Shown here piece after piece: positions 43,365-51,215 of a stretch of 64,000 bases of DNA. The position numbers and the translations under genes were made by a program. This DNA comes from Ostreococcus lucimarinus (taxonomy: Eukaryota), in NCBI GenBank assembly GCA_000092065.1, contig CP000592.1; one strand, given 5' to 3'. The notes beneath the pieces are model-generated. The model was not told the DNA's origin, did no database searches, and saw nothing but the letters and a program-made list of their open reading frames with translations. Position 1 is the first letter of the stretch, and each line of letters opens with the position of its first letter.

Positions 43365-45026
43365 ATGTCGCACGCCGCGCACCTCCGCCGCGCGCTCTCG
43401 CGCGCGCTCTCGCGCGCGAGCGCCGCGCGCGCGCCGCTCGGCCCGGTCGCGAACCCTGGAGCGACACCCGATCGCGCCGCCGCGCTGAAGCGCGACGCGC
43501 TCCGCGCCTACGCCACGGGCCCGGCGCGACACGAGAAACAAATCTCCGACGATCTGCTCGCGAAGCTCGGCGGGCTGTCCACGCAGGCGCTGATCGATGG
43601 ATTGTGGGTCATGGGATGGCCGACGAGCCACGTGATGGGCGCGCGACCGCTCACGGAGGGACAAAAGAAACTGGTCGGACGCGCGGTGACGCTTCGATTC
43701 GTGCCGCAGCGACCGGATATCGCGGCGAGTAAACCGGCGGGGATGGAATCGCCGGAATACGAGGCGTTTGAACAGACCGGGCCGAACGAGTGCGTGGTCA
43801 TGGAGAGCGTCGGGCCGTGGGAGAGCGTCGGCGGCGATATCAAGTTTTTACGATTGGCGCAGCTTAAATGCGCGGGATTAGTGACCGATGGAAGCGTGAG
43901 AGACACCGCGGTGTTGCGGGAGTACGGATTTCCGGTGTTTTCGATTTCGACGACGCCGAGACAAGGACCGCACGTGCACCAGCCGTGGGAGGCGAACGGC
44001 GTCATCACGTGCGGCGGCATCGTCGTGCGACCGGGCGACGCGATCATCGGCGATCAAGACGGCGTTGTCGTTATTCCAGCGTCTCACGCGCAGGAAGTGT
44101 ACGATATCGCGCACTCTCGAGAGATTGTCGAGGATATCGTGAAGACGGAGCTCGCGACAAATCCGGGTCCGCCGGGCAAATTTTATCCGTTTGTGAGCGG
44201 CAAGATCAAGAAGGACTCGCCGTTGTGCAAGTTGCTCGCGAGCAAGGGCTACGACTCGAGCAAGTTTGCGCACACCGCCGCGAACCCGGGCGCTCGCGCC
44301 GGTCTCGGTGGTATTCCGAAGAGCCGCAATACGCTCGGCGCGCGCAGATCGATGAGCCAACAAGTTCGTCACAAGTCGTACATGCGAACCGACGCCGAGT
44401 TCAACGAAGTGCTCGATCAGTTTGCCAAGCACAAGGCGTGTGCTGTCCTCCGCACGGGAGTCGAAGGTGCGGCGTACAACGCCATGGACGCCGCCGTCCA
44501 AGGCGGCTTCAAGCTCGTTGAATTCACCCTCACCACCCCAGGCTGCCTCGACGCGGTTTCCCGATTTGCCTCCCGCACCGACGTCTTGACCGGCTGCGGT
44601 ACTATTCTCAACATCGACGACGCCAAGAGAGCTTTGGACGCTGGGTCGAAATTTATCGTTGCTCCGATTTTGATTCCGGAAGTTGTCGAGTGGTGCGCGG
44701 CGAACAAAATCGTCTGCATCCCGGGCTGCCAAACCCCGAGCGAGTTGTACCGCGCGTACAGCCTCGGCGCCCCCGTGCAAAAGCTCTTCCCGGGTGTCGC
44801 CGGTGGCCCTAACTGGGTTCGCGCCGTCGCCTCGGCGCTTCCGATGCTTCGAATCAACCCGACGTCGGGCGTCGAAATCGACACCGCCGCCGACTACTTG
44901 CGTGCGGGCGCCGCCTCTCTCGGTTTCGTCGCCCCGGCGTTCGATCAAAACGCCATCAAGGCGGGTGATTGGGACGCCATCTCCAAGCGTGCGACTGAAA
45001 TTATTGCCGCCGTGAAGGCCGCGTAA
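43365..45026 (+). CDS. Fusion protein: N-terminal RraA-like/HMG-CHA-aldolase-like domain plus C-terminal KDPG/KHG aldolase (Eda-type), with a mitochondrial-type presequence
   Basis: N-terminal half: LIDGLWVMGWPTSHVMGARPL...GRAVTLRFVPQRPD...ECVVMESVG...GGDIKFLRLAQLKCAGLVTDGSVRDTAVLREYGFPVFS (RraA-like fold). C-terminal half: GAAYNAMDAAVQGGFKLVEFTLTTPGCLDAVSRFA..TGCGTILNIDDAKRALDAGSKFIVAPILIPEVVEWCAANKIVCIPGCQTPSELYRAYSLGAPVQKLFPG (KDPG/KHG aldolase). ATG at 43365 (MSHAAHLRRALSRALSRASAARAPLG). Confidence 0.8.
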   Translation: MSHAAHLRRALSRALSRASAARAPLGPVANPGATPDRAAALKRDALRAYATGPARHEKQISDDLLAKLGGLSTQALIDGLWVMGWPTSHVMGARPLTEGQKKLVGRAVTLRFVPQRPDIAASKPAGMESPEYEAFEQTGPNECVVMESVGPWESVGGDIKFLRLAQLKCAGLVTDGSVRDTAVLREYGFPVFSISTTPRQGPHVHQPWEANGVITCGGIVVRPGDAIIGDQDGVVVIPASHAQEVYDIAHSREIVEDIVKTELATNPGPPGKFYPFVSGKIKKDSPLCKLLASKGYDSSKFAHTAANPGARAGLGGIPKSRNTLGARRSMSQQVRHKSYMRTDAEFNEVLDQFAKHKACAVLRTGVEGAAYNAMDAAVQGGFKLVEFTLTTPGCLDAVSRFASRTDVLTGCGTILNIDDAKRALDAGSKFIVAPILIPEVVEWCAANKIVCIPGCQTPSELYRAYSLGAPVQKLFPGVAGGPNWVRAVASALPMLRINPTSGVEIDTAADYLRAGAASLGFVAPAFDQNAIKAGDWDAISKRATEIIAAVKAA

Positions 45027-45115: not shown

Positions 45116-47023
45116 TTACTTCCTACTCGAACACGAAAAAACCGTCGGTCGATAGTTCGGGACATACATGGTTGAATACACGTACTCGCTCATCGCTTCC
45201 TCGCCCTGCGCGACGATGTGACGAATGTCTTCCGGCACTCGACCCTCGCGCGCGGCGGCTTCGATGACCTTGATCGCAACGTACGCCGAGATATCGCGGA
45301 TGCGATCGATACGCGGAAAGATAGTGCCTTCTGTGTATTGTTCGGGCGTGAGCATAGCTGGGATAGCCATCGCGGCGGCTTGAAGCATCGCGTCGGAGAT
45401 GACAGACGATTTCGACAGCAACGCACCGAGACCAAGTCCGGGAAAGACGTAAAAGTTATTGCCCTGATTCGCCTTCATCACTCTGCCATTAATCTCGACA
45501 TCGCTGAACGGCGAACCAGATGAAAAGATAGCCCTTCCGTCAGTCGCGTTCGCGGCGTCCTCCGCCGTACATTCGGCACGAGACGTCGGATTTGAGAGCG
45601 GCATGATAATCGGGCGCTCGTTTATTTTACCCATTTCCTCAAGCACCTCCTTCGAAAATAGCCCCTTCACCGTGGAAACGCCGAGTAAAACCGTGGGTTT
45701 CGCCTTTTTAATCACGTCCATGAGCGACGCGCCCTCGGGCATGTCGTTTCGGTTGCGTGCGAAACCTTTCAGCGGCTCCTGTCCGGGATCGTCCAACGCG
45801 CGTTCGGCGGTGACCAGCCCGTTGGCGTCGATGATGTAAAATCTCTTGTATGCTTCCTCGGCCGTCAATCCATTCGCAACCATAGCTTGGTGTAGGAATG
45901 ATGCTATACCACATCCCGCGCTTCCAGCGCCGCACATGACGAAGGTTTGTTTGACAATATCCTTGCGATGACCATGAAGACACTTCATCGCTCCGTACAC
46001 GCCGGCTAGGACGACGGCCGCGGTGCCTTGGATATCATCGTTGAAGCACAGAACTTCATCGCGATAGTGCTGCAAAATTTTGTTCGCGTGCTTCGTTTGA
46101 AAGTCTTCGAACTGAATCAACGCGTTTGGCCACCGGTTTCGCACGCCGCGAATAAACTCCTCCACAAACGCGTAATACTCCTCACCTTCCAGTCGCTTGT
46201 GCGGCGACCCGAGATAATAGGGATCGTTCAAAAGATCTGGATTGTTCGTGCCAACGTCGAGGACGACTGGCAAAACATGCTGCGGATCAAAACCACCCCC
46301 GGCGACGTACAGGTCCAATTTCCCTTGCGAAATTCCCATACCATTCATGCCGAGATCGCCCAAACCCAAAATCCTCGACCCGTCGGTGACCACTATGACG
46401 GAGACGTTCCGTTTCCAGTTGAACATCATCGAGTTAAAATCGCCCCTATCCTCGCGCGAAAAGTACATCCCTCTCGCCCGGCGCAATAACTTTGAATATT
46501 CAAGGCACGCGTCTCCGACCGTCGGCGTGTAAATCACCGGCGCTAATTCCTCGATGTGATCGTGCACCAGGCGATAAAACAACGTCTCGTTACGATCCTT
46601 CAAATCTTGAAGGTGACTCCACCGATCCAGCGGACGCTTCAGCGCTTTATTTTGCGCCCATATCTTCACCGCTTGCTGTCCGATCGTGAAGAACCGCGGC
46701 GGCACGAGCCCGCGAATGCCCAATCGTTCGCGTTCGCTCGCGCTGAACCCGGTGCCTTTATTGTATATGGGATTGTGGAGCACCTCGATGCCGCGCGACG
46801 TGTCGGGATGCATCACCACCACGTCGTCCACCGCGCGCCTGTGACTGTTCGTCCCGATGGGTTCGATCATGCTCGACGCTCGCGAGCGCTCGTCGTCGTC
46901 GAGCAGCGCGCCGACGGCGTTCGACGACGCGGTGGTCGTTGCCGCGTCGCGCGCGAAAATCGACGCGGTGCCGCGCGCGGTGGACGCGAGCGCGCGCGAG
47001 CGCGCGACGGACGCGGAGAGCAT
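45116..47023 (-). CDS. ME: NAD(P)-dependent malic enzyme with an organellar presequence
   Basis: ...NPIYNKGTGFSASERERLGIRGLVPP..., VVTDGSRILGLGDLGMNGMGISQGKLDLY..., FNDDIQGTAAVVLAG... show whole-length malic enzyme similarity. The proposed start is ATG at 47023 (MLSASVARSRALASTARG...). About 635 aa. Confidence 0.85.
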   Translation of the reverse strand: MLSASVARSRALASTARGTASIFARDAATTTASSNAVGALLDDDERSRASSMIEPIGTNSHRRAVDDVVVMHPDTSRGIEVLHNPIYNKGTGFSASERERLGIRGLVPPRFFTIGQQAVKIWAQNKALKRPLDRWSHLQDLKDRNETLFYRLVHDHIEELAPVIYTPTVGDACLEYSKLLRRARGMYFSREDRGDFNSMMFNWKRNVSVIVVTDGSRILGLGDLGMNGMGISQGKLDLYVAGGGFDPQHVLPVVLDVGTNNPDLLNDPYYLGSPHKRLEGEEYYAFVEEFIRGVRNRWPNALIQFEDFQTKHANKILQHYRDEVLCFNDDIQGTAAVVLAGVYGAMKCLHGHRKDIVKQTFVMCGAGSAGCGIASFLHQAMVANGLTAEEAYKRFYIIDANGLVTAERALDDPGQEPLKGFARNRNDMPEGASLMDVIKKAKPTVLLGVSTVKGLFSKEVLEEMGKINERPIIMPLSNPTSRAECTAEDAANATDGRAIFSSGSPFSDVEINGRVMKANQGNNFYVFPGLGLGALLSKSSVISDAMLQAAAMAIPAMLTPEQYTEGTIFPRIDRIRDISAYVAIKVIEAAAREGRVPEDIRHIVAQGEEAMSEYVYSTMYVPNYRPTVFSCSSRK

Positions 47024-47190
47024 CGCACGTCGCGTCGGTCGCGTCGACTGGATCCGCGCGGGAGCGCGGCGTCGACGTGTGGCGTCGCGATTTGGGTTTA
47101 TCTGCTTTCCCGGCGACGGGGACGGGACGGGACGGGACGCGACGAACGCGACGGAATGTAGACTATCGATTGAAACGATTATGGCTAAGG

Positions 47191-49674
47191 CTATTGCTTC
47201 AATCGAGCCTTGATTTCGTCGGTGTCGCCGTACCAGTGCTCGAAGACGCCGATGGCGTGATGGATGACGTCGAGACGGCGGCGAAGGTCGGCGGCGCGCG
47301 CGGCGGCGCGATCGAGCGGGGGACATCGGGCGTCGGCTCGCGCCTCAGCGCGGCCGCGCCTACGGAAGACGAAGGCGACGCTCATGCGTGGTGGATCTGG
47401 GCTGTCGATTTCACACGCGCTGCCCCAGTGGATGATGTTTCCTGACCATGCGAGGAGGGCGCCGGCGTCGACGGGGGCGAGGGGCTTGGCGGCGCCGCGA
47501 GGCACCTCGGGGGCGGATTTTGAAACGTCACTTCGCCCACCATCTTCGTCGTCTTTCTTCGACACGACGTACATGCACCCACTTGTTTCCGTGACGCGGT
47601 TCAACGGGAGCCAAAGGCTGAGGACTTGCGTTTTACCATCTTCGTCGACGGCGTCCGAGAGGGAGTAGTCGCGATGCGGAACGCCAAAGTTGTTACCGAT
47701 GTAACGCTTCCCAGATGCGTCTTTTTCGAGCTTGAACGCGGCAACGGATGGTTCTAACACGCACTCACCGCCAAGTAGGACCTCCGCGTGCGCGAATAGC
47801 AAGTCGATGACACGCCAGGCAACGTCGGAAACGAATATGCACGCCGGCGGCCACTTGGCGTCGACGAGCGCCTCGATGCCGCTGCGGAGCGCGTTGGTAT
47901 CCTTAATCGGCACGATAACATCGCCCCACACGTAGCCGTTCTCTTGTAGCGACGCCACGTGCTCTTGCGTTGCGCTAGCGTCGATTTCACTCACGGTCGC
48001 ATCGCTGTTGCTTGACACCGCGCAGCCGTGCGTGCTTAAAATGGCGTTCCAGTAGGTTGCGTCGAAAACGTTCGTCGAAATTGCCTTTCCCGGAGCTGCA
48101 TCTTCGCCCTCGTCTCCGAACGCGTCCCATGCCGAGTTCTTGTCATCGATCGCTGGTAAATTTCGTACGTCCTCGTCCTCGTCGTTGGCGGCGTAATCGA
48201 GCACAGTAAAGTGCCCGTGTGTATCGACATCAGCGATGCGATAAGGAAATCGAGCGGCGTCGGCGCCAAGCTTTTCTCGCAGTCGCGCGTGCCAGTGCTC
48301 GGGATGAAAACTTTCAACATTCTTCGACGGGTCGAACCAAGTGCATACGATATCGCGTTCTCTCACATCGCTCGTTGCGCTCGTCCTCGTACGCTTTTCT
48401 GGCCGACTTTCCACGTCCTCAAAAGTGACGTCGGCGGGATCTCGCAGCAAGTGCGCATTGTCGCCCAGCGCCTCCAAAGCGGATCCATTCATGCCCGATA
48501 ACGCCAAAACACCGGTATCGGCGTTGATAAGCGTTCGTACACGCAGTACGATCGTCTCATCGTCGCCTTGTGGCCAAGATCCTACGATGGCGTCGTACTT
48601 GGCGCCGCTCGCGCGTTCGAGAAAATCTAAAAAGTCTTCGCTCCAAACTCTAATCTCCCCGCGAGCGCCTGCATCGCTCGCGTGCACCTTTTTATCACAT
48701 CGCGTGCACTCCAAACCAAAATATTTCACCATCAAGTCCACGACCGTGCCATCTTGTTCGACGACGTCGACGCGCGTCTCCGGTGAGTACGTGCGCATGA
48801 ACGACGCCACGGCGGCGCCTCCGGCGCATCCCAGCGCCAACACCCTTCGCACTGGACCGTCCCCCGGCGATGCCATCGCCACCGCGACGTACGTCGCATC
48901 TCTCCACGAATCTAACGCCAATCCGAGCGGTTCGTTCGGGTCCTTTTCCGCCTCGACTGCACCGTCGCTCCCTCTCCACGGGCCGCGCACGAGCGCTCTC
49001 GTGCATTCGCCCCCGGACCCATCCTCCACCGCCATATCGATCACACTCAGCGCCTCAAGCCCACTGTCTTCCGCTCTTTCCACGTGCTCAATGACTTCTA
49101 CGCTCCACGTCAACTTCCCAGTGCGCGCGTCGACCCCCAACGGCGTCACCAACGTCAACGTCTCGATCAACAACGCAAACGTCCAACGCTCCTCCGCGTC
49201 CAATTCATCCTGTGCTCTCAACGTCGGCGTCGTCGCGCTCGCCATCCCGCTCGACGAATCCACGAAAATCGGTTGTCCGGTGCTCTCGTCGAGCTCCACC
49301 TGATACCCCTCGTTCTCGAGCAATCCATTCGCGACGCCGCCGAGTTCGCTCAAAACCAACAGCGCGCCGTCGCTCGCCGCGAGCGCGTCCGCGTCCGCGC
49401 TCTCCACCGGTGCCCCCGTCGCGCTGTCGCGCTCGACCGCTTGCACGGACCTCAACAAAGGCACGACGCACCCCGACGCGCACAGCGCGAGCGCCCAAGC
49501 GGCGCCGTGACCCTCGTCGCCGATGCGCAGCTCGAGCAGTGATTCCGCGGCGGCGGCGCGTTCGCGCGACGATGGCGACGACAAACGGGCGACAAACGAG
49601 CGCAGACTCGCGGTAGAGTCGACCGACGGCGATGCGCGCGCGGTGTCGCGCGCGTCGTCGCGCGGGCGAGGCAT
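47191..49674 (-). CDS. Multidomain protein: central class I SAM-methyltransferase/spermidine-synthase-like domain plus C-terminal PhyH-like Fe(II)/2OG dioxygenase domain
   Basis: MTase-like: RVLALGCAGGAAVASFMRTYSPETRVDVVEQDGTVVDLMVKYFG. PhyH-like: ...NNFGVPHRDYSLSDAVDEDGKTQVLSLWLPLNRVTETSGCMYVVSKKDD...ALLAWSGNIIHWGS (HxD...H). 827 aa. ATG at 49674. Its 3' end overlaps the 5' region of the malic enzyme track ORF. Confidence 0.5.
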   Translation of the reverse strand: MPRPRDDARDTARASPSVDSTASLRSFVARLSSPSSRERAAAAESLLELRIGDEGHGAAWALALCASGCVVPLLRSVQAVERDSATGAPVESADADALAASDGALLVLSELGGVANGLLENEGYQVELDESTGQPIFVDSSSGMASATTPTLRAQDELDAEERWTFALLIETLTLVTPLGVDARTGKLTWSVEVIEHVERAEDSGLEALSVIDMAVEDGSGGECTRALVRGPWRGSDGAVEAEKDPNEPLGLALDSWRDATYVAVAMASPGDGPVRRVLALGCAGGAAVASFMRTYSPETRVDVVEQDGTVVDLMVKYFGLECTRCDKKVHASDAGARGEIRVWSEDFLDFLERASGAKYDAIVGSWPQGDDETIVLRVRTLINADTGVLALSGMNGSALEALGDNAHLLRDPADVTFEDVESRPEKRTRTSATSDVRERDIVCTWFDPSKNVESFHPEHWHARLREKLGADAARFPYRIADVDTHGHFTVLDYAANDEDEDVRNLPAIDDKNSAWDAFGDEGEDAAPGKAISTNVFDATYWNAILSTHGCAVSSNSDATVSEIDASATQEHVASLQENGYVWGDVIVPIKDTNALRSGIEALVDAKWPPACIFVSDVAWRVIDLLFAHAEVLLGGECVLEPSVAAFKLEKDASGKRYIGNNFGVPHRDYSLSDAVDEDGKTQVLSLWLPLNRVTETSGCMYVVSKKDDEDGGRSDVSKSAPEVPRGAAKPLAPVDAGALLAWSGNIIHWGSACEIDSPDPPRMSVAFVFRRRGRAEARADARCPPLDRAAARAADLRRRLDVIHHAIGVFEHWYGDTDEIKARLKQ

Positions 49675-49722: not shown

Positions 49723-51111
49723 CTACTGCGAGCGGTCGAGGACGAGCGCGAGAGATGAATCGTCGGGAACGAGCGCTTCGAAGTGGCCGGGAAAGTGCTT
49801 GACGCACAGCGCAGGGATGGTATCACCGCCGTGGCGGCAGCGGCGGCGCGCGATGGCGGCGGTAACGAGGGAGAGGGTGAAAGTTTCGCGCGCGCGGCGG
49901 CAACGCCACTCGACGGTTTTACCGTCGCGACGAAATCGACCGTCCGCGAGGTATCTCGCGGGTGCGAAAGCGCGGTGTCTTTCGTCGCGACGCGGTGCGG
50001 CGAGGAAGAAAGGTGACTTGGCCGTCGCTGGGACGCGTTCGTCCGTCGTCTCCACGCACACGATGGCTACGTCGTTGAGACTCGCGATGGCGCATAGCTC
50101 GGCGTCGGTGCCCCAAAAGCGAGTCCAGATTTTCGTCGCCGTGTACGGTGCGGCGTCCTTACGCATCGTGCGAATGTACTCTTTGAAGCGCTCGTCGTCG
50201 CTCGCTCGCTTAAATTTGCCAACGCGCAGGTAGCGTCGCCCCTCGTCGCCGTTCATCAGTAGGTTGTATAGCGCACGTATTTCTGTCCTCCCGCGCATCT
50301 CGTTCCGCCGTTTCTCTAATTCGTCGCACATTCGCGCTCGAATGTCGCGCCAATCCGATCCAGCGCGTTTAACATCCCAAAGTTTATGCCTCGCGAGCGC
50401 CTTGACGCCGTGAGCGATGGACCGAAAACAACAATTTCCGTCCTCGACAACGCCTTGCACGCGCAAGCCCAACGCGCGCGTCTGCGAACTCCAATGACTG
50501 TTCTCTTTGCGTGCTTTTCCCACCGCACGCGCCTCGCCGACGAAGATGACATCGCTCGCGCTCGCGCTTGCGCTCACGCTCGAGCTCGAGCTCGAGCTCG
50601 ACGTCCGCCGCGTCGTTTCGCTCTCGACGTCCTCCACGCGCACTCGCCAACCGCGCGGTCGCAACTGCGCTGGCATCGTCTCCGCCGTCGCGACGCGTTC
50701 TAGGACCGCCCCCGCGAGCGCTGATCCACGCTCTAAAAGCTTTCGAGCGTACTTTGTTCCCATGGAACGACCCTCGCGCGCCGCGGACGTCTCGCGCCGC
50801 CGCGCCGCGGACGCGCGTCGATACGCCGCGAGCAATGTCATCGACGCCAGCGCGAACGCGCGCGTCGAACGAAACCCTAAACGGCCGTACGAAACACATA
50901 AAGCGATGAACTCGGCGTAGACGCGCGAGTTCTGCGAAATCGACAGCTCGAGCGCGCGAAAGAGCGCGCGAGAAGCGCGAGTGATGTCGGCGGCGGACGC
51001 GCGTTTGCCGTCGATTTTTCGCGCCGCGCGCGCCGCGGCGACGGCGAAACGCCTGGACGCGGCGTCGCGTAGCTTTCGTTTGGCACCGCGCGTCGCGAGC
51101 GCGACGCGCAT
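49723..51111 (-). CDS. OTU-domain cysteine protease (deubiquitinase-like)
   Basis: Catalytic Cys box GVVEDGNCCFRSIAHGV. His box region ...HFPGHFEALVP. A poly-Ser linker lies upstream. The first ATG is at 51111. The track ORF starts at a GTG three codons upstream. Confidence 0.6.
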   Translation of the reverse strand: MRVALATRGAKRKLRDAASRRFAVAAARAARKIDGKRASAADITRASRALFRALELSISQNSRVYAEFIALCVSYGRLGFRSTRAFALASMTLLAAYRRASAARRRETSAAREGRSMGTKYARKLLERGSALAGAVLERVATAETMPAQLRPRGWRVRVEDVESETTRRTSSSSSSSSVSASASASDVIFVGEARAVGKARKENSHWSSQTRALGLRVQGVVEDGNCCFRSIAHGVKALARHKLWDVKRAGSDWRDIRARMCDELEKRRNEMRGRTEIRALYNLLMNGDEGRRYLRVGKFKRASDDERFKEYIRTMRKDAAPYTATKIWTRFWGTDAELCAIASLNDVAIVCVETTDERVPATAKSPFFLAAPRRDERHRAFAPARYLADGRFRRDGKTVEWRCRRARETFTLSLVTAAIARRRCRHGGDTIPALCVKHFPGHFEALVPDDSSLALVLDRSQ

Positions 51112-51215
51112 GGCGCGCACGCGCGGATATGGCGCGCGGCTCGGCGACGGTTAGCTGAAGATTTCTAGCGCCGGGACGCGCGCGCGAGCTCTAATGTTCT
51201 ATTACGATCGCTAAG

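What the first reader, a model, noticed from the sequence alone, without database searches (positions are those of the whole stretch)
47191..49674. Unusual fusion of a class I methyltransferase-like domain with a PhyH-like Fe(II)/2-oxoglutarate dioxygenase
One 827-aa ORF carries a spermidine-synthase/SAM-MTase-like Rossmann motif (VLALGCAGG...VDVVEQDG) and, 350 aa further on, a PhyH-type HxD...H dioxygenase core. A methylation plus hydroxylation pairing is reminiscent of tRNA wybutosine/ALKBH8-type bifunctional enzymes or of secondary-metabolite tailoring. The substrate cannot be inferred from sequence.
Basis: partly seen in the sequence, partly recalled or inferred. Interest (0 to 1): 0.5.

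Follow-up and report, generated by a model that had tools for sequence, protein, structure and literature searches.

The report
Methyltransferase-fold plus PhyH dioxygenase fusion protein
A green picoalga (Ostreococcus-type) gene really does join a methyltransferase-shaped domain to an iron/2-oxoglutarate dioxygenase in one conserved protein, but the methyltransferase part has lost key catalytic residues, so it more likely holds a protein substrate for the dioxygenase than methylates it.

The parts
47191..49674 (-). Complete single-exon ORF, 827 aa plus stop
   Evidence: The identical gene is called on an independent assembly. Full-length orthologues appear. The O. tauri gene model Q00XN8/XP_003082417.1 is 822 aa.
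49312..49617 (-). aa 20-121: armadillo/HEAT-like helical repeat
49219..49311 (-). aa 122-152: degenerate WW-like beta-hairpin (EGYQVELDESTGQPIFVDSSSG...TP); both signature Trp residues are lost
   Evidence: The model has strands at 124-128 and 135-139. Homologous segments in stand-alone relatives give sub-threshold Pfam WW hits (P0162 E 0.011, P0156 E 0.028). The window protein itself gives no WW hit. This is weak evidence.
48871..49218 (-). aa 153-268: helix plus N-terminal beta-sheet subdomain of the spermidine-synthase fold
   Evidence: Foldseek alignments of 285-333 columns cover whole spermidine or spermine synthases. Identity among Ostreococcus orthologues is 68%.
48430..48870 (-). aa 269-415: Rossmann (7-beta-strand) core, METTL13 MT13-C / spermidine-synthase-like. 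Motif I is VLALGCAGGAA (48811-48843). The Post I residue is E306 (48757-48759). The DG-motif equivalent is D347. The Post II position is S366 (48577-48579).
48193..48429 (-). aa 416-494: post-Rossmann segment shared with the stand-alone family (LLRDPADVTFEDV, FPYR, VLDYA)
   Evidence: The segment is aligned with the stand-alone family in A3. Invariant residues are listed.
48109..48162 (-). aa 505-522: junction motif NLPAIDDKNSAWDAFGDE in a disordered acidic linker. It is homologous to the extreme C-terminal DDPxWxLFD tail of the stand-alone N-half family.
   Evidence: N513, A515, W516 and F519 are invariant. Six complete stand-alone proteins end in [WF]x[LM]FD-COOH and a seventh (P0213) ends in WDLF. 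pLDDT is below 50 for residues 494-534.
47194..48069 (-). aa 536-827: PhyH-family Fe(II)/2-oxoglutarate dioxygenase domain
47668..47676 (-). H667-R-D669: the HxD of the 2-His-1-carboxylate iron triad, within the clade signature GxNFxxPHRD
   Evidence: Invariant in 25 sequences and in the methyltransferase-fused relatives. Coordinates verified.
47428..47430 (-). H749: distal iron-binding His (NIIHWGS)
   Evidence: Invariant H-W-G.
47380..47388 (-). R763-M-S765: predicted 2-oxoglutarate C5-carboxylate-binding Arg and Ser
   Evidence: Invariant R-x-S lying 14 residues after the distal His. The role is inferred from the PhyH-family pattern. It was not checked in model coordinates.

Best explanation
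This is a genuine single nuclear gene of an Ostreococcus-clade picoalga. It arose by end-to-end fusion of two proteins that exist separately in other eukaryotes.

Part A (aa ~20-521) belongs to a family that is stand-alone in chytrid fungi. That family has armadillo-like helices, a degenerate WW-like hairpin, a METTL13 MT13-C / spermidine-synthase-fold 7-beta-strand domain and an acidic-aromatic C-terminal tail ([WF]xLFD). The tail is now the internal linker motif WDAFGD.

Part B (aa ~536-827) belongs to a distinct, mostly eukaryotic clade of PhyH-fold Fe(II)/2OG dioxygenases. Its iron and 2OG ligands are intact, so it is most likely catalytically active (inferred, not shown).

In the Ostreococcus lineage the methyltransferase fold has lost or degraded three of its four cofactor or catalysis motifs. 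I therefore infer that it no longer methylates in the METTL13/SpdS manner. It more likely acts, together with the ARM/WW-like region and the linker motif, as the substrate-recruiting module for the dioxygenase.

The same dioxygenase clade is independently fused to SET, Methyltransf_16 (protein-lysine MTase), Methyltransf_11, LRR and ankyrin modules. One of its closest structural neighbours, ThoJ/TsaJ, hydroxylates a peptide residue only after that residue has been methylated. From this I infer that the substrate is a protein or peptide. The likely reaction is hydroxylation, or oxidative demethylation, of a residue that is or has been methylated.

Shown: the gene, the fusion, both folds, the conserved dioxygenase ligands, the motif decay and the partner-domain spectrum. 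Inferred: catalytic activity, inactivity of the methyltransferase fold, protein substrate and reaction type.
For: Fusion and conservation:
- The ORF is uninterrupted and has full-length orthologues.
- Exhaustive HMMER found 8 proteins matching both halves, 19 hits to the N-half only (seven of them complete stand-alone proteins, the rest fragments) and 132 with the C-half only.
- The N-only proteins are chytrid hypothetical proteins, labelled 'PABS domain-containing'. Two of them pass Pfam Spermine_synth. Their best PDB match is METTL13 5wcj at E 6e-5.
- The junction motif aligns with their C-terminus.

Dioxygenase:
- H667, D669, H749, R763 and S765 are invariant.
- The core is 83% identical among Ostreococcus orthologues.

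Motif decay:
- Motif I is GCAGG, SCAAG or GLRCG, against GLGGG in METTL13 and the stand-alone family.
- The Post II position is S366, and Arg or His in orthologues.
- D347 alternates with Ser.
- Only the Post I residue E306 is invariant.
- Residue roles are taken from PMC6109062.
- The Rossmann core is 44% identical.

Partner domains of the same dioxygenase clade:
- SET+LRR (P0127, P0129), Methyltransf_16 (P0173, also an MMETSP transcript), Methyltransf_11/25/31 (P0159, P0178), LRR, HA+LRR and Ank.
- All of these share the clade signature.

Precedents:
- PHYHD1 is an oxidative demethylase (PMC12709175).
Against: - No biochemical or expression data were available.
- The methyltransferase fold is still clearly under selection. 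R277, V278, L279, C283, A284, G286, E306, Y360, D361, G365 and P368 are invariant.
- Its glycine-rich loop keeps small residues, and the Micromonas-like orthologues keep an Asp (GDLP) that may occupy the Post II position. SAM binding, or even a non-canonical transfer, is therefore not excluded.
- Of the 40 relatives scanned, 17 carry a recognisable methyltransferase-type domain. Many C-half family proteins have only a coiled-coil or acidic N-extension.
- No characterised PhyH-family enzyme is known to modify a folded cellular protein (own knowledge). Most close structural neighbours act on small molecules.
- Bacterial relatives gave no consistent gene neighbourhood.
- The whole-protein model has only moderate confidence (pLDDT 71.7).
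Confidence: 0.45

Rival explanations
1. This is a truly bifunctional enzyme. The N-half still methylates and the C-half hydroxylates the same substrate in sequence, as ALKBH8 does on tRNA or TsaG/TsaJ do on a peptide.
For: - The Post I Glu (E306) is invariant and the Rossmann fold is kept.
- Stand-alone relatives have canonical METTL13-like motifs (GLGGG, DVY).
- The dioxygenase clade is fused to methyltransferase domains that pass the Pfam thresholds for their families in other organisms.
- Methylation-then-hydroxylation has a precedent in TsaG/TsaJ.
Against: - In the Ostreococcus orthologues the Post II position is S, R or H, whereas METTL13 Asp575 is required for activity.
- Motif I is degraded and the DG-motif Asp is variable.
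- The Rossmann core is the least conserved folded part.
Confidence: 0.25
2. This is a small-molecule enzyme. Options include a polyamine-related aminopropyltransferase-like domain plus hydroxylase, a secondary-metabolite tailoring enzyme of the EvdMO1 type, or a PHYHD1-like demethylase of free methylated nucleosides or metabolites.
For: - Most of the closest solved structures act on small molecules: AviO1, SnoK, MysH, PtlH, KanJ and PHYHD1.
- EvdMO1 is a bacterial MTase-oxygenase fusion.
- PHYHD1 demethylates free 2'-O-methyl nucleosides.
- The N-half fold is that of spermidine synthase.
Against: - The dcSAM-selective Asp of the spermidine-synthase GGGDG loop is absent, and so are the putrescine-binding Post II aspartates.
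- The family is closer to METTL13 MT13-C, a protein N-terminal methyltransferase, than to SpdS.
- The partner domains are protein-interaction or protein-methylation modules: ARM-like, WW-like, LRR, Ank, SET and Methyltransf_16.
- There is no biosynthetic cluster context. The neighbours are malic enzyme, an OTU-like protein, NAA35 and an RraA-aldolase.
Confidence: 0.17
3. This is a tRNA or rRNA modification enzyme analogous to ALKBH8 or the wybutosine pathway.
For: The only support is the general logic of a methyltransferase paired with a 2OG oxygenase. One bacterial relative lies next to RsmD-like and RluB-like genes.
Against: - No RRM or other RNA-binding domain was found.
- The methyltransferase fold is not Trm9- or Trm5-like.
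- The bacterial neighbourhoods are inconsistent.
Confidence: 0.05
4. The fusion is an annotation or assembly artefact, and two adjacent genes have been read through.
For: None was found.
Against: - The frame is continuous.
- The linker carries conserved coding motifs in orthologues only 59-66% identical.
- The same fusion occurs in relatives at 32-50% identity.
- Independent assemblies and the O. tauri gene model agree.
Confidence: 0.02

Closest known systems
Human METTL13 C-terminal domain (MT13-C, PDB 5wcj), the eEF1A N-terminal methyltransferase
   Different: In the window protein motif I is GCAGG. The position of the essential Post II Asp575 is Ser, and Arg or His in orthologues. There is no MT13-N domain. 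Extra ARM-like and WW-like modules, a tail motif and a fused dioxygenase are present. No substrate is known.
Spermidine/spermine synthases (Pfam PF01564; e.g. 6qmm, 2o06, 3c6m)
   Same: The overall fold is shared, including the N-terminal beta subdomain (Foldseek E ~2e-6; profile E 0.003). Two stand-alone relatives pass the Pfam threshold.
   Different: It lacks the GGGDG Asp that selects decarboxylated SAM and lacks the Post II aspartates that bind putrescine. The window protein itself does not reach the Pfam threshold.
PhyH-family Fe(II)/2OG dioxygenases: PHYHD1 (2opw/3obz), ThoJ (6zyl), SnoK, AviO1, PHYH (2a1x)
   Same: It has the double-stranded beta-helix fold with an HxD...H triad and a downstream Arg. 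ThoJ/TsaJ hydroxylates a peptide His only after N-methylation. PHYHD1 performs oxidative demethylation.
   Different: Identity to any solved member is only 13-19%. It has its own clade signature (EPS..., GxNFxxPHRD, NGCMYVVP, IHWGS, HWY) and a helical N-terminal extension. Its substrate is unknown.
EvdMO1 (PDB 6ec3) and other bacterial methyltransferase-PhyH fusions (Iyer et al. 2010, PMC2938197)
   Different: EvdMO1 is a bacterial, antibiotic-cluster sugar-tailoring enzyme with a different methyltransferase subfamily. The protein here is eukaryotic, has no cluster context, has a METTL13-C-like fold with decayed motifs, and carries extra protein-interaction modules.
ALKBH8 (RRM + AlkB-type oxygenase + Trm9-like MTase)
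   Same: It combines a 2OG oxygenase and a methyltransferase fold in one protein.
   Different: The oxygenase subfamily differs (AlkB versus PhyH), the methyltransferase subfamily differs, the domain order differs, and there is no RRM. It is an analogy only.

Membership tests
PhyH (PF05721) Fe(II)/2OG dioxygenase | Match to the family HMM above the curated threshold | tested here: met
   The window protein scores 23.6 bits against a cutoff of 22. All 11 orthologues match, with a best E of 3.6e-7. Relatives reach up to 48 bits.
PhyH (PF05721) Fe(II)/2OG dioxygenase | Double-stranded beta-helix fold superposable on solved family members | tested here: met
PhyH (PF05721) Fe(II)/2OG dioxygenase | HxD...H iron-binding facial triad | tested here: met
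   H667, D669 and H749 are invariant in 25 aligned family members and in the methyltransferase-fused relatives.
PhyH (PF05721) Fe(II)/2OG dioxygenase | Basic residue binding the 2OG C5 carboxylate downstream of the distal His | tested here: inconclusive
   R763-x-S765 is invariant. Its placement in the active site was not inspected in model coordinates.
PhyH (PF05721) Fe(II)/2OG dioxygenase | 2OG-dependent oxidation activity, and phytanoyl-CoA as substrate for PHYH proper | not testable with these tools
   This needs an enzyme assay. The database name 'Phytanoyl-CoA dioxygenase' for the O. tauri orthologue is a family label, not a tested function.
METTL13 MT13-C-like / spermidine-synthase-fold 7BS methyltransferase | Fold: Rossmann core plus N-terminal beta subdomain | tested here: met
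METTL13 MT13-C-like / spermidine-synthase-fold 7BS methyltransferase | Significant sequence match (Pfam PF01564 or a PDB homologue) | tested here: inconclusive
   The window protein has no Pfam hit. NCBIfam matches are E 0.05 and PDB matches are E 0.003 with the profile. Homology is established transitively. The stand-alone relatives match the window protein at E 1e-19 to 1e-25. Two of them pass PF01564, and P0195 matches 5wcj at E 6e-5.
METTL13 MT13-C-like / spermidine-synthase-fold 7BS methyltransferase | Motif I glycine-rich loop (GxGxG; METTL13 Gly503) | tested here: inconclusive
   The window has GCAGG, with a one-residue insertion after the loop relative to the other sequences. Orthologues have SCAAG or GLRCG. 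METTL13 and the stand-alone relatives have GLGGG.
METTL13 MT13-C-like / spermidine-synthase-fold 7BS methyltransferase | Post I acidic residue (METTL13 Glu524, required for activity) | tested here: met
   E306 is invariant. Its role is taken from PMC6109062.
METTL13 MT13-C-like / spermidine-synthase-fold 7BS methyltransferase | Post II Asp (METTL13 Asp575 / SpdS Asp173, required for activity) | tested here: not met
   The position is S366 in the window protein and R or H in other Ostreococcus orthologues. The DVY segment of the stand-alone relatives is missing. Micromonas-like orthologues have GDLP.
Spermidine synthase proper (aminopropyltransferase) | Asp in the GGGDG loop that selects decarboxylated SAM | tested here: not met
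   The loop is GCAGGA, with no Asp. The stand-alone relatives have GLGGGS, as METTL13 does.
ALKBH8 / wybutosine-type tRNA modification enzymes | AlkB- or JmjC-type oxygenase, Trm9/Trm5-type methyltransferase, RNA-binding domain | tested here: not met
   The oxygenase is PhyH-type. The methyltransferase fold is METTL13/SpdS-type. No RRM or other RNA-binding Pfam domain appears at E<=10.
WW domain (PF00397) | HMM match, and two signature Trp residues | tested here: not met
   The window protein gives no hit, and both Trp positions are substituted (GYQ......SATTP). Relatives give only sub-threshold hits at E 0.011-0.028. I describe it only as WW-like.

The most novel reading that the evidence does not exclude
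The C-half clade may be a previously unrecognised family of eukaryotic protein-directed PhyH-type dioxygenases. These would read or erase methyl marks, either by methylation-dependent hydroxylation or by oxidative demethylation. Such a role would explain why the clade has repeatedly fused to SET, Methyltransf_16, Methyltransf_11 and METTL13-C-like modules. The N-half family may dock onto its target through a tail ([DE][DE]Px[WF]xLFD) that mimics the ribosomal P-stalk C-terminus (SD[DE]DMGFGLFD). That would make a translational GTPase such as eEF1A or eEF2 the likely substrate.
Probability: 0.12. Interest if true: 0.8.

Novelty: new variant of a known kind. Interest (0 to 1): 0.5.

Why it matters
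- Both folds are well known, and methyltransferase-PhyH fusions already exist in bacteria. The architecture is therefore not categorically new.
- The family is uncharacterised. It is conserved across Mamiellophyceae and beyond, and it gives a clean Rosetta-stone link between two orphan eukaryotic families.
- One of those families is a chytrid-type METTL13-C-like protein with a P-stalk-like tail. The other is a PhyH-type dioxygenase clade that keeps pairing with protein-methyltransferase and protein-interaction domains.
- If the dioxygenase acts on methylated protein residues, PhyH-type enzymes would join JmjC and AlkB enzymes as oxygenases that act on methyl marks.
- O. tauri is genetically tractable and has a compact proteome, so it would be a practical system in which to find the substrate.

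Tried and rejected
1. The third word-index homologue search, run with the N-half alignment A3, returned only orthologues already known. It gave no new named relatives.
2. The AlphaFold-database fold library was not available. I therefore have no taxonomic survey by structure.
3. I examined bacterial relatives found by pattern scan (12 loci, 23-31% identity) for operon context. Their neighbours were heterogeneous: RsmD-like plus RluB, a class I MTase, a second PhyH paralogue, glutaminase, CAT and Sel1. I rejected this as a source of functional inference.
4. Ten further 520-600-aa C-family proteins had no extra Pfam domain. Methyltransferase fusion is therefore recurrent but not universal.
5. 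The two-gene artefact reading is rejected.
6. The ALKBH8/wybutosine analogy is rejected as membership.
7. Spermidine-synthase function is rejected for this protein, because the dcSAM-selecting and putrescine-binding aspartates are missing.
8. The tail motif has two short-motif look-alikes: the P-stalk C-terminus (PMC3280276) and the WxxF-acidic AP-2 alpha-ear motif (own knowledge). I could not discriminate between them and claim neither.
9. The neighbouring genes are an RraA-aldolase, malic enzyme, an OTU-like protein and NAA35. They give no functional clue.
Full report
**Observation.** One search lists an ATG-started ORF at 47191..49674 on the minus strand, 827 aa. One search confirms that its only stop codon is at the end. 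VLALGCAGGAA is aa 278-288. VDVVEQDG follows at aa 302-309. The HxD is H667-R-D669 and the distal His is H749. The window has about 60% G+C and closely packed genes. The neighbours are an RraA-like/KDPG-aldolase ORF, malic enzyme, an OTU-like ORF and NAA35/Mak10. The identical 827-aa protein, with the same neighbours, is called as one gene on an independent assembly. The closest named relative, at 61% identity, is Ostreococcus tauri Q00XN8 / XP_003082417.1. It is 822 aa and carries the automatic label 'Phytanoyl-CoA dioxygenase'. The window therefore comes from another Ostreococcus-clade alga.

**One gene or two?** Ten distinct orthologues at 59-66% identity are full length, 795-884 aa. They align end to end. 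The segment between the two domains holds invariant coding motifs (LLRDP..V.F.DV, FPY, VLDYA, N.AW.AF). A Micromonas-like orthologue of 1030 aa (P0011) and more distant proteins at 32-50% identity (P0085-P0093) match both halves. The artefact reading is refuted.

**C-terminal half.**
- Pfam PhyH just passes its threshold in the window protein (23.6 bits against 22). It is found in all 11 orthologues.
- With 25 sequences, AlphaFold2 gave a confident model of aa 530-827 (pLDDT 90.8, pTM 0.90).
- By profile, the best solved relative is PHYHD1 at E 3e-4.
- H667, D669, H749 and R763-x-S765 are invariant across the family. The dioxygenase core is the most conserved part of the protein, at 83% identity among Ostreococcus orthologues.
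- I infer an active Fe(II)/2OG dioxygenase. The clade has its own signature (LEPS, GxNFxxPHRD, NGCMYVVP, IHWGS, HWY).

**N-terminal half.**
- The window protein alone gives only weak matches to spermidine synthases and METTL13. The orthologue profile improves these to E 0.003.
- The exhaustive HMMER search recovered proteins that match only aa ~20-373, at E 1e-19 to 1e-25.
- The named ones are chytrid hypothetical proteins from Rhizophlyctis, Phlyctochytrium, Blyttiomyces and Chytriomyces. One is labelled 'PABS domain-containing protein'.
- Two of these proteins pass Pfam Spermine_synth, and two give sub-threshold WW hits. Their best PDB match is METTL13 MT13-C at E 6e-5.
- On the whole-protein model (pLDDT 71.7), Foldseek finds spermidine and spermine synthases at E ~2e-6.

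**The fusion junction.** Six complete stand-alone proteins end in [WF]x[LM]FD at the very C-terminus, usually after DDP, and a seventh (P0213) ends in WDLF. In alignment A3 this tail matches DDKNSAWDAFGD (aa 510-521) of the window protein. There N513, A515, W516 and F519 are invariant, and the model is disordered. Other fused proteins carry the same internal motif, for example FGLFG in P0085. The fusion thus joined a complete N-half protein, tail included, to the dioxygenase. The tail resembles the ribosomal P-stalk C-terminus SD[DE]DMGFGLFD (PMC3280276). It also resembles the WxxF-acidic adaptor-binding motif (own knowledge). I could test neither.

**Is the methyltransferase fold still an enzyme?**
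- According to PMC6109062, MT13-C uses motif I (Gly503), Post I (Glu524, required), a DG motif (Asp551) and Post II (Asp575, required).
- The stand-alone relatives keep GLGGG, Glu and D-V-Y.
- The window protein has GCAGG with an inserted residue. E306 is conserved. D347 is Ser in several orthologues. S366 sits at the Post II position, where other Ostreococcus orthologues have Arg or His.
- The DVY segment is missing in all Mamiellales proteins. A more distant fused protein (P0089) keeps it.
- The Rossmann core is the least conserved folded region (44%). The flanking beta subdomain is at 68% and the WW-like hairpin at 67%.
- I therefore consider canonical methyl transfer unlikely in this lineage, with probability about 0.6. 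The fold more likely serves binding. This is an inference; SAM binding is not excluded.

**Substrate class.**
- Pfam scans of 40 relatives show the same dioxygenase clade fused to several other partner modules.
- These are SET+LRR (P0127, P0129), Methyltransf_16 'lysine methyltransferase' (P0173, also an MMETSP transcript), Methyltransf_11/25/31 (P0159, P0178), LRR, HA+LRR and ankyrin repeats.
- All of these proteins share the clade signature. Many other members have only a coiled-coil or acidic extension.
- Protein-methylating and protein-binding partners, together with the ARM-like and WW-like modules here, favour a protein or peptide substrate.
- Two precedents make a link to methyl groups plausible. 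TsaJ/ThoJ (PF05721; ThoJ is the second-best structural neighbour) hydroxylates a peptide histidine only after bis-N-methylation by a partner methyltransferase (PMC8153245). PHYHD1 is a 2OG-dependent demethylase of free 2'-O-methyl nucleosides (PMC12709175).
- Most close structural neighbours act on small molecules, however, so a small-molecule substrate remains a real rival.

**Comparison with known systems.**
- MTase-PhyH fusions exist in bacteria: EvdMO1, 6ec3 (citation), and the fusions noted by Iyer et al. 2010.
- The present protein differs in several ways. It is eukaryotic. Its methyltransferase fold is METTL13-C-like and has decayed motifs. It carries ARM/WW-like modules and the tail motif.
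- It is not an ALKBH8- or wybutosine-type enzyme. The oxygenase and methyltransferase subfamilies are wrong, and there is no RNA-binding domain.

**Verdict.** This is an uncharacterised but conserved fusion, best described as a new variant of a known kind. Its main value is as a lead. It connects two orphan eukaryotic families, and it points to a possible protein-directed, methylation-linked role for a PhyH-type dioxygenase clade. Interest is moderate (0.5).

Noticed in passing
window 43365-45026 (+): A 553-aa ORF combines an RraA-like domain (aa 90-236) with a KDPG/KHG aldolase domain (aa 354-541) in one protein. This is another two-enzyme fusion, lying two genes away from the gene under study.
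   Followed up: no
window 49723-51120 (-): A 465-aa ORF gives only a sub-threshold OTU cysteine-protease match (19.6 bits against a cutoff of 23.3). Its stop codon lies only 48 bp upstream of the start codon of the gene under study, so that gene's promoter must overlap the OTU-like gene's 3' end.
   Followed up: no
window 45116-47326 (-): The mechanical malic-enzyme ORF (736 aa) overlaps the 3' end of the studied gene. The gene is called at 635 aa on an independent assembly, about 100 codons shorter, so the start is probably near 47026 (my reading of the translation) and the overlap is not real.
   Followed up: partly
proteins P0162, P0165, P0166, P0183, P0195, P0206, P0213 (chytrid fungi and unnamed eukaryotes): The stand-alone METTL13-C-like family ends in DDPx[WF]x[LM]FD-COOH (P0213 ends in WDLF). 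This closely resembles the ribosomal P-stalk tail GFGLFD that docks translational GTPases.
   Followed up: partly
proteins P0127, P0129, P0173, P0159, P0178, P0170, P0188, P0212: The same PhyH-like clade is fused to SET+LRR, Methyltransf_16, Methyltransf_11/25/31, HA+LRR, LRR or C-terminal ankyrin repeats in unnamed marine eukaryote proteins.
   Followed up: partly
L004 3306-4271 and 5671-6804; L007 2375-3361 and 5797-6834: Two deltaproteobacterial MAGs each carry two PhyH-like paralogues a few kb apart. In each, one is a relative of the algal clade that shares GxNFxxPHRD. L004 also has a small class I methyltransferase nearby.
   Followed up: partly
window 1-64000: G+C in 2-kb windows alternates between about 0.55-0.60 and about 0.70 along the window. 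The cause was not examined.
   Followed up: no
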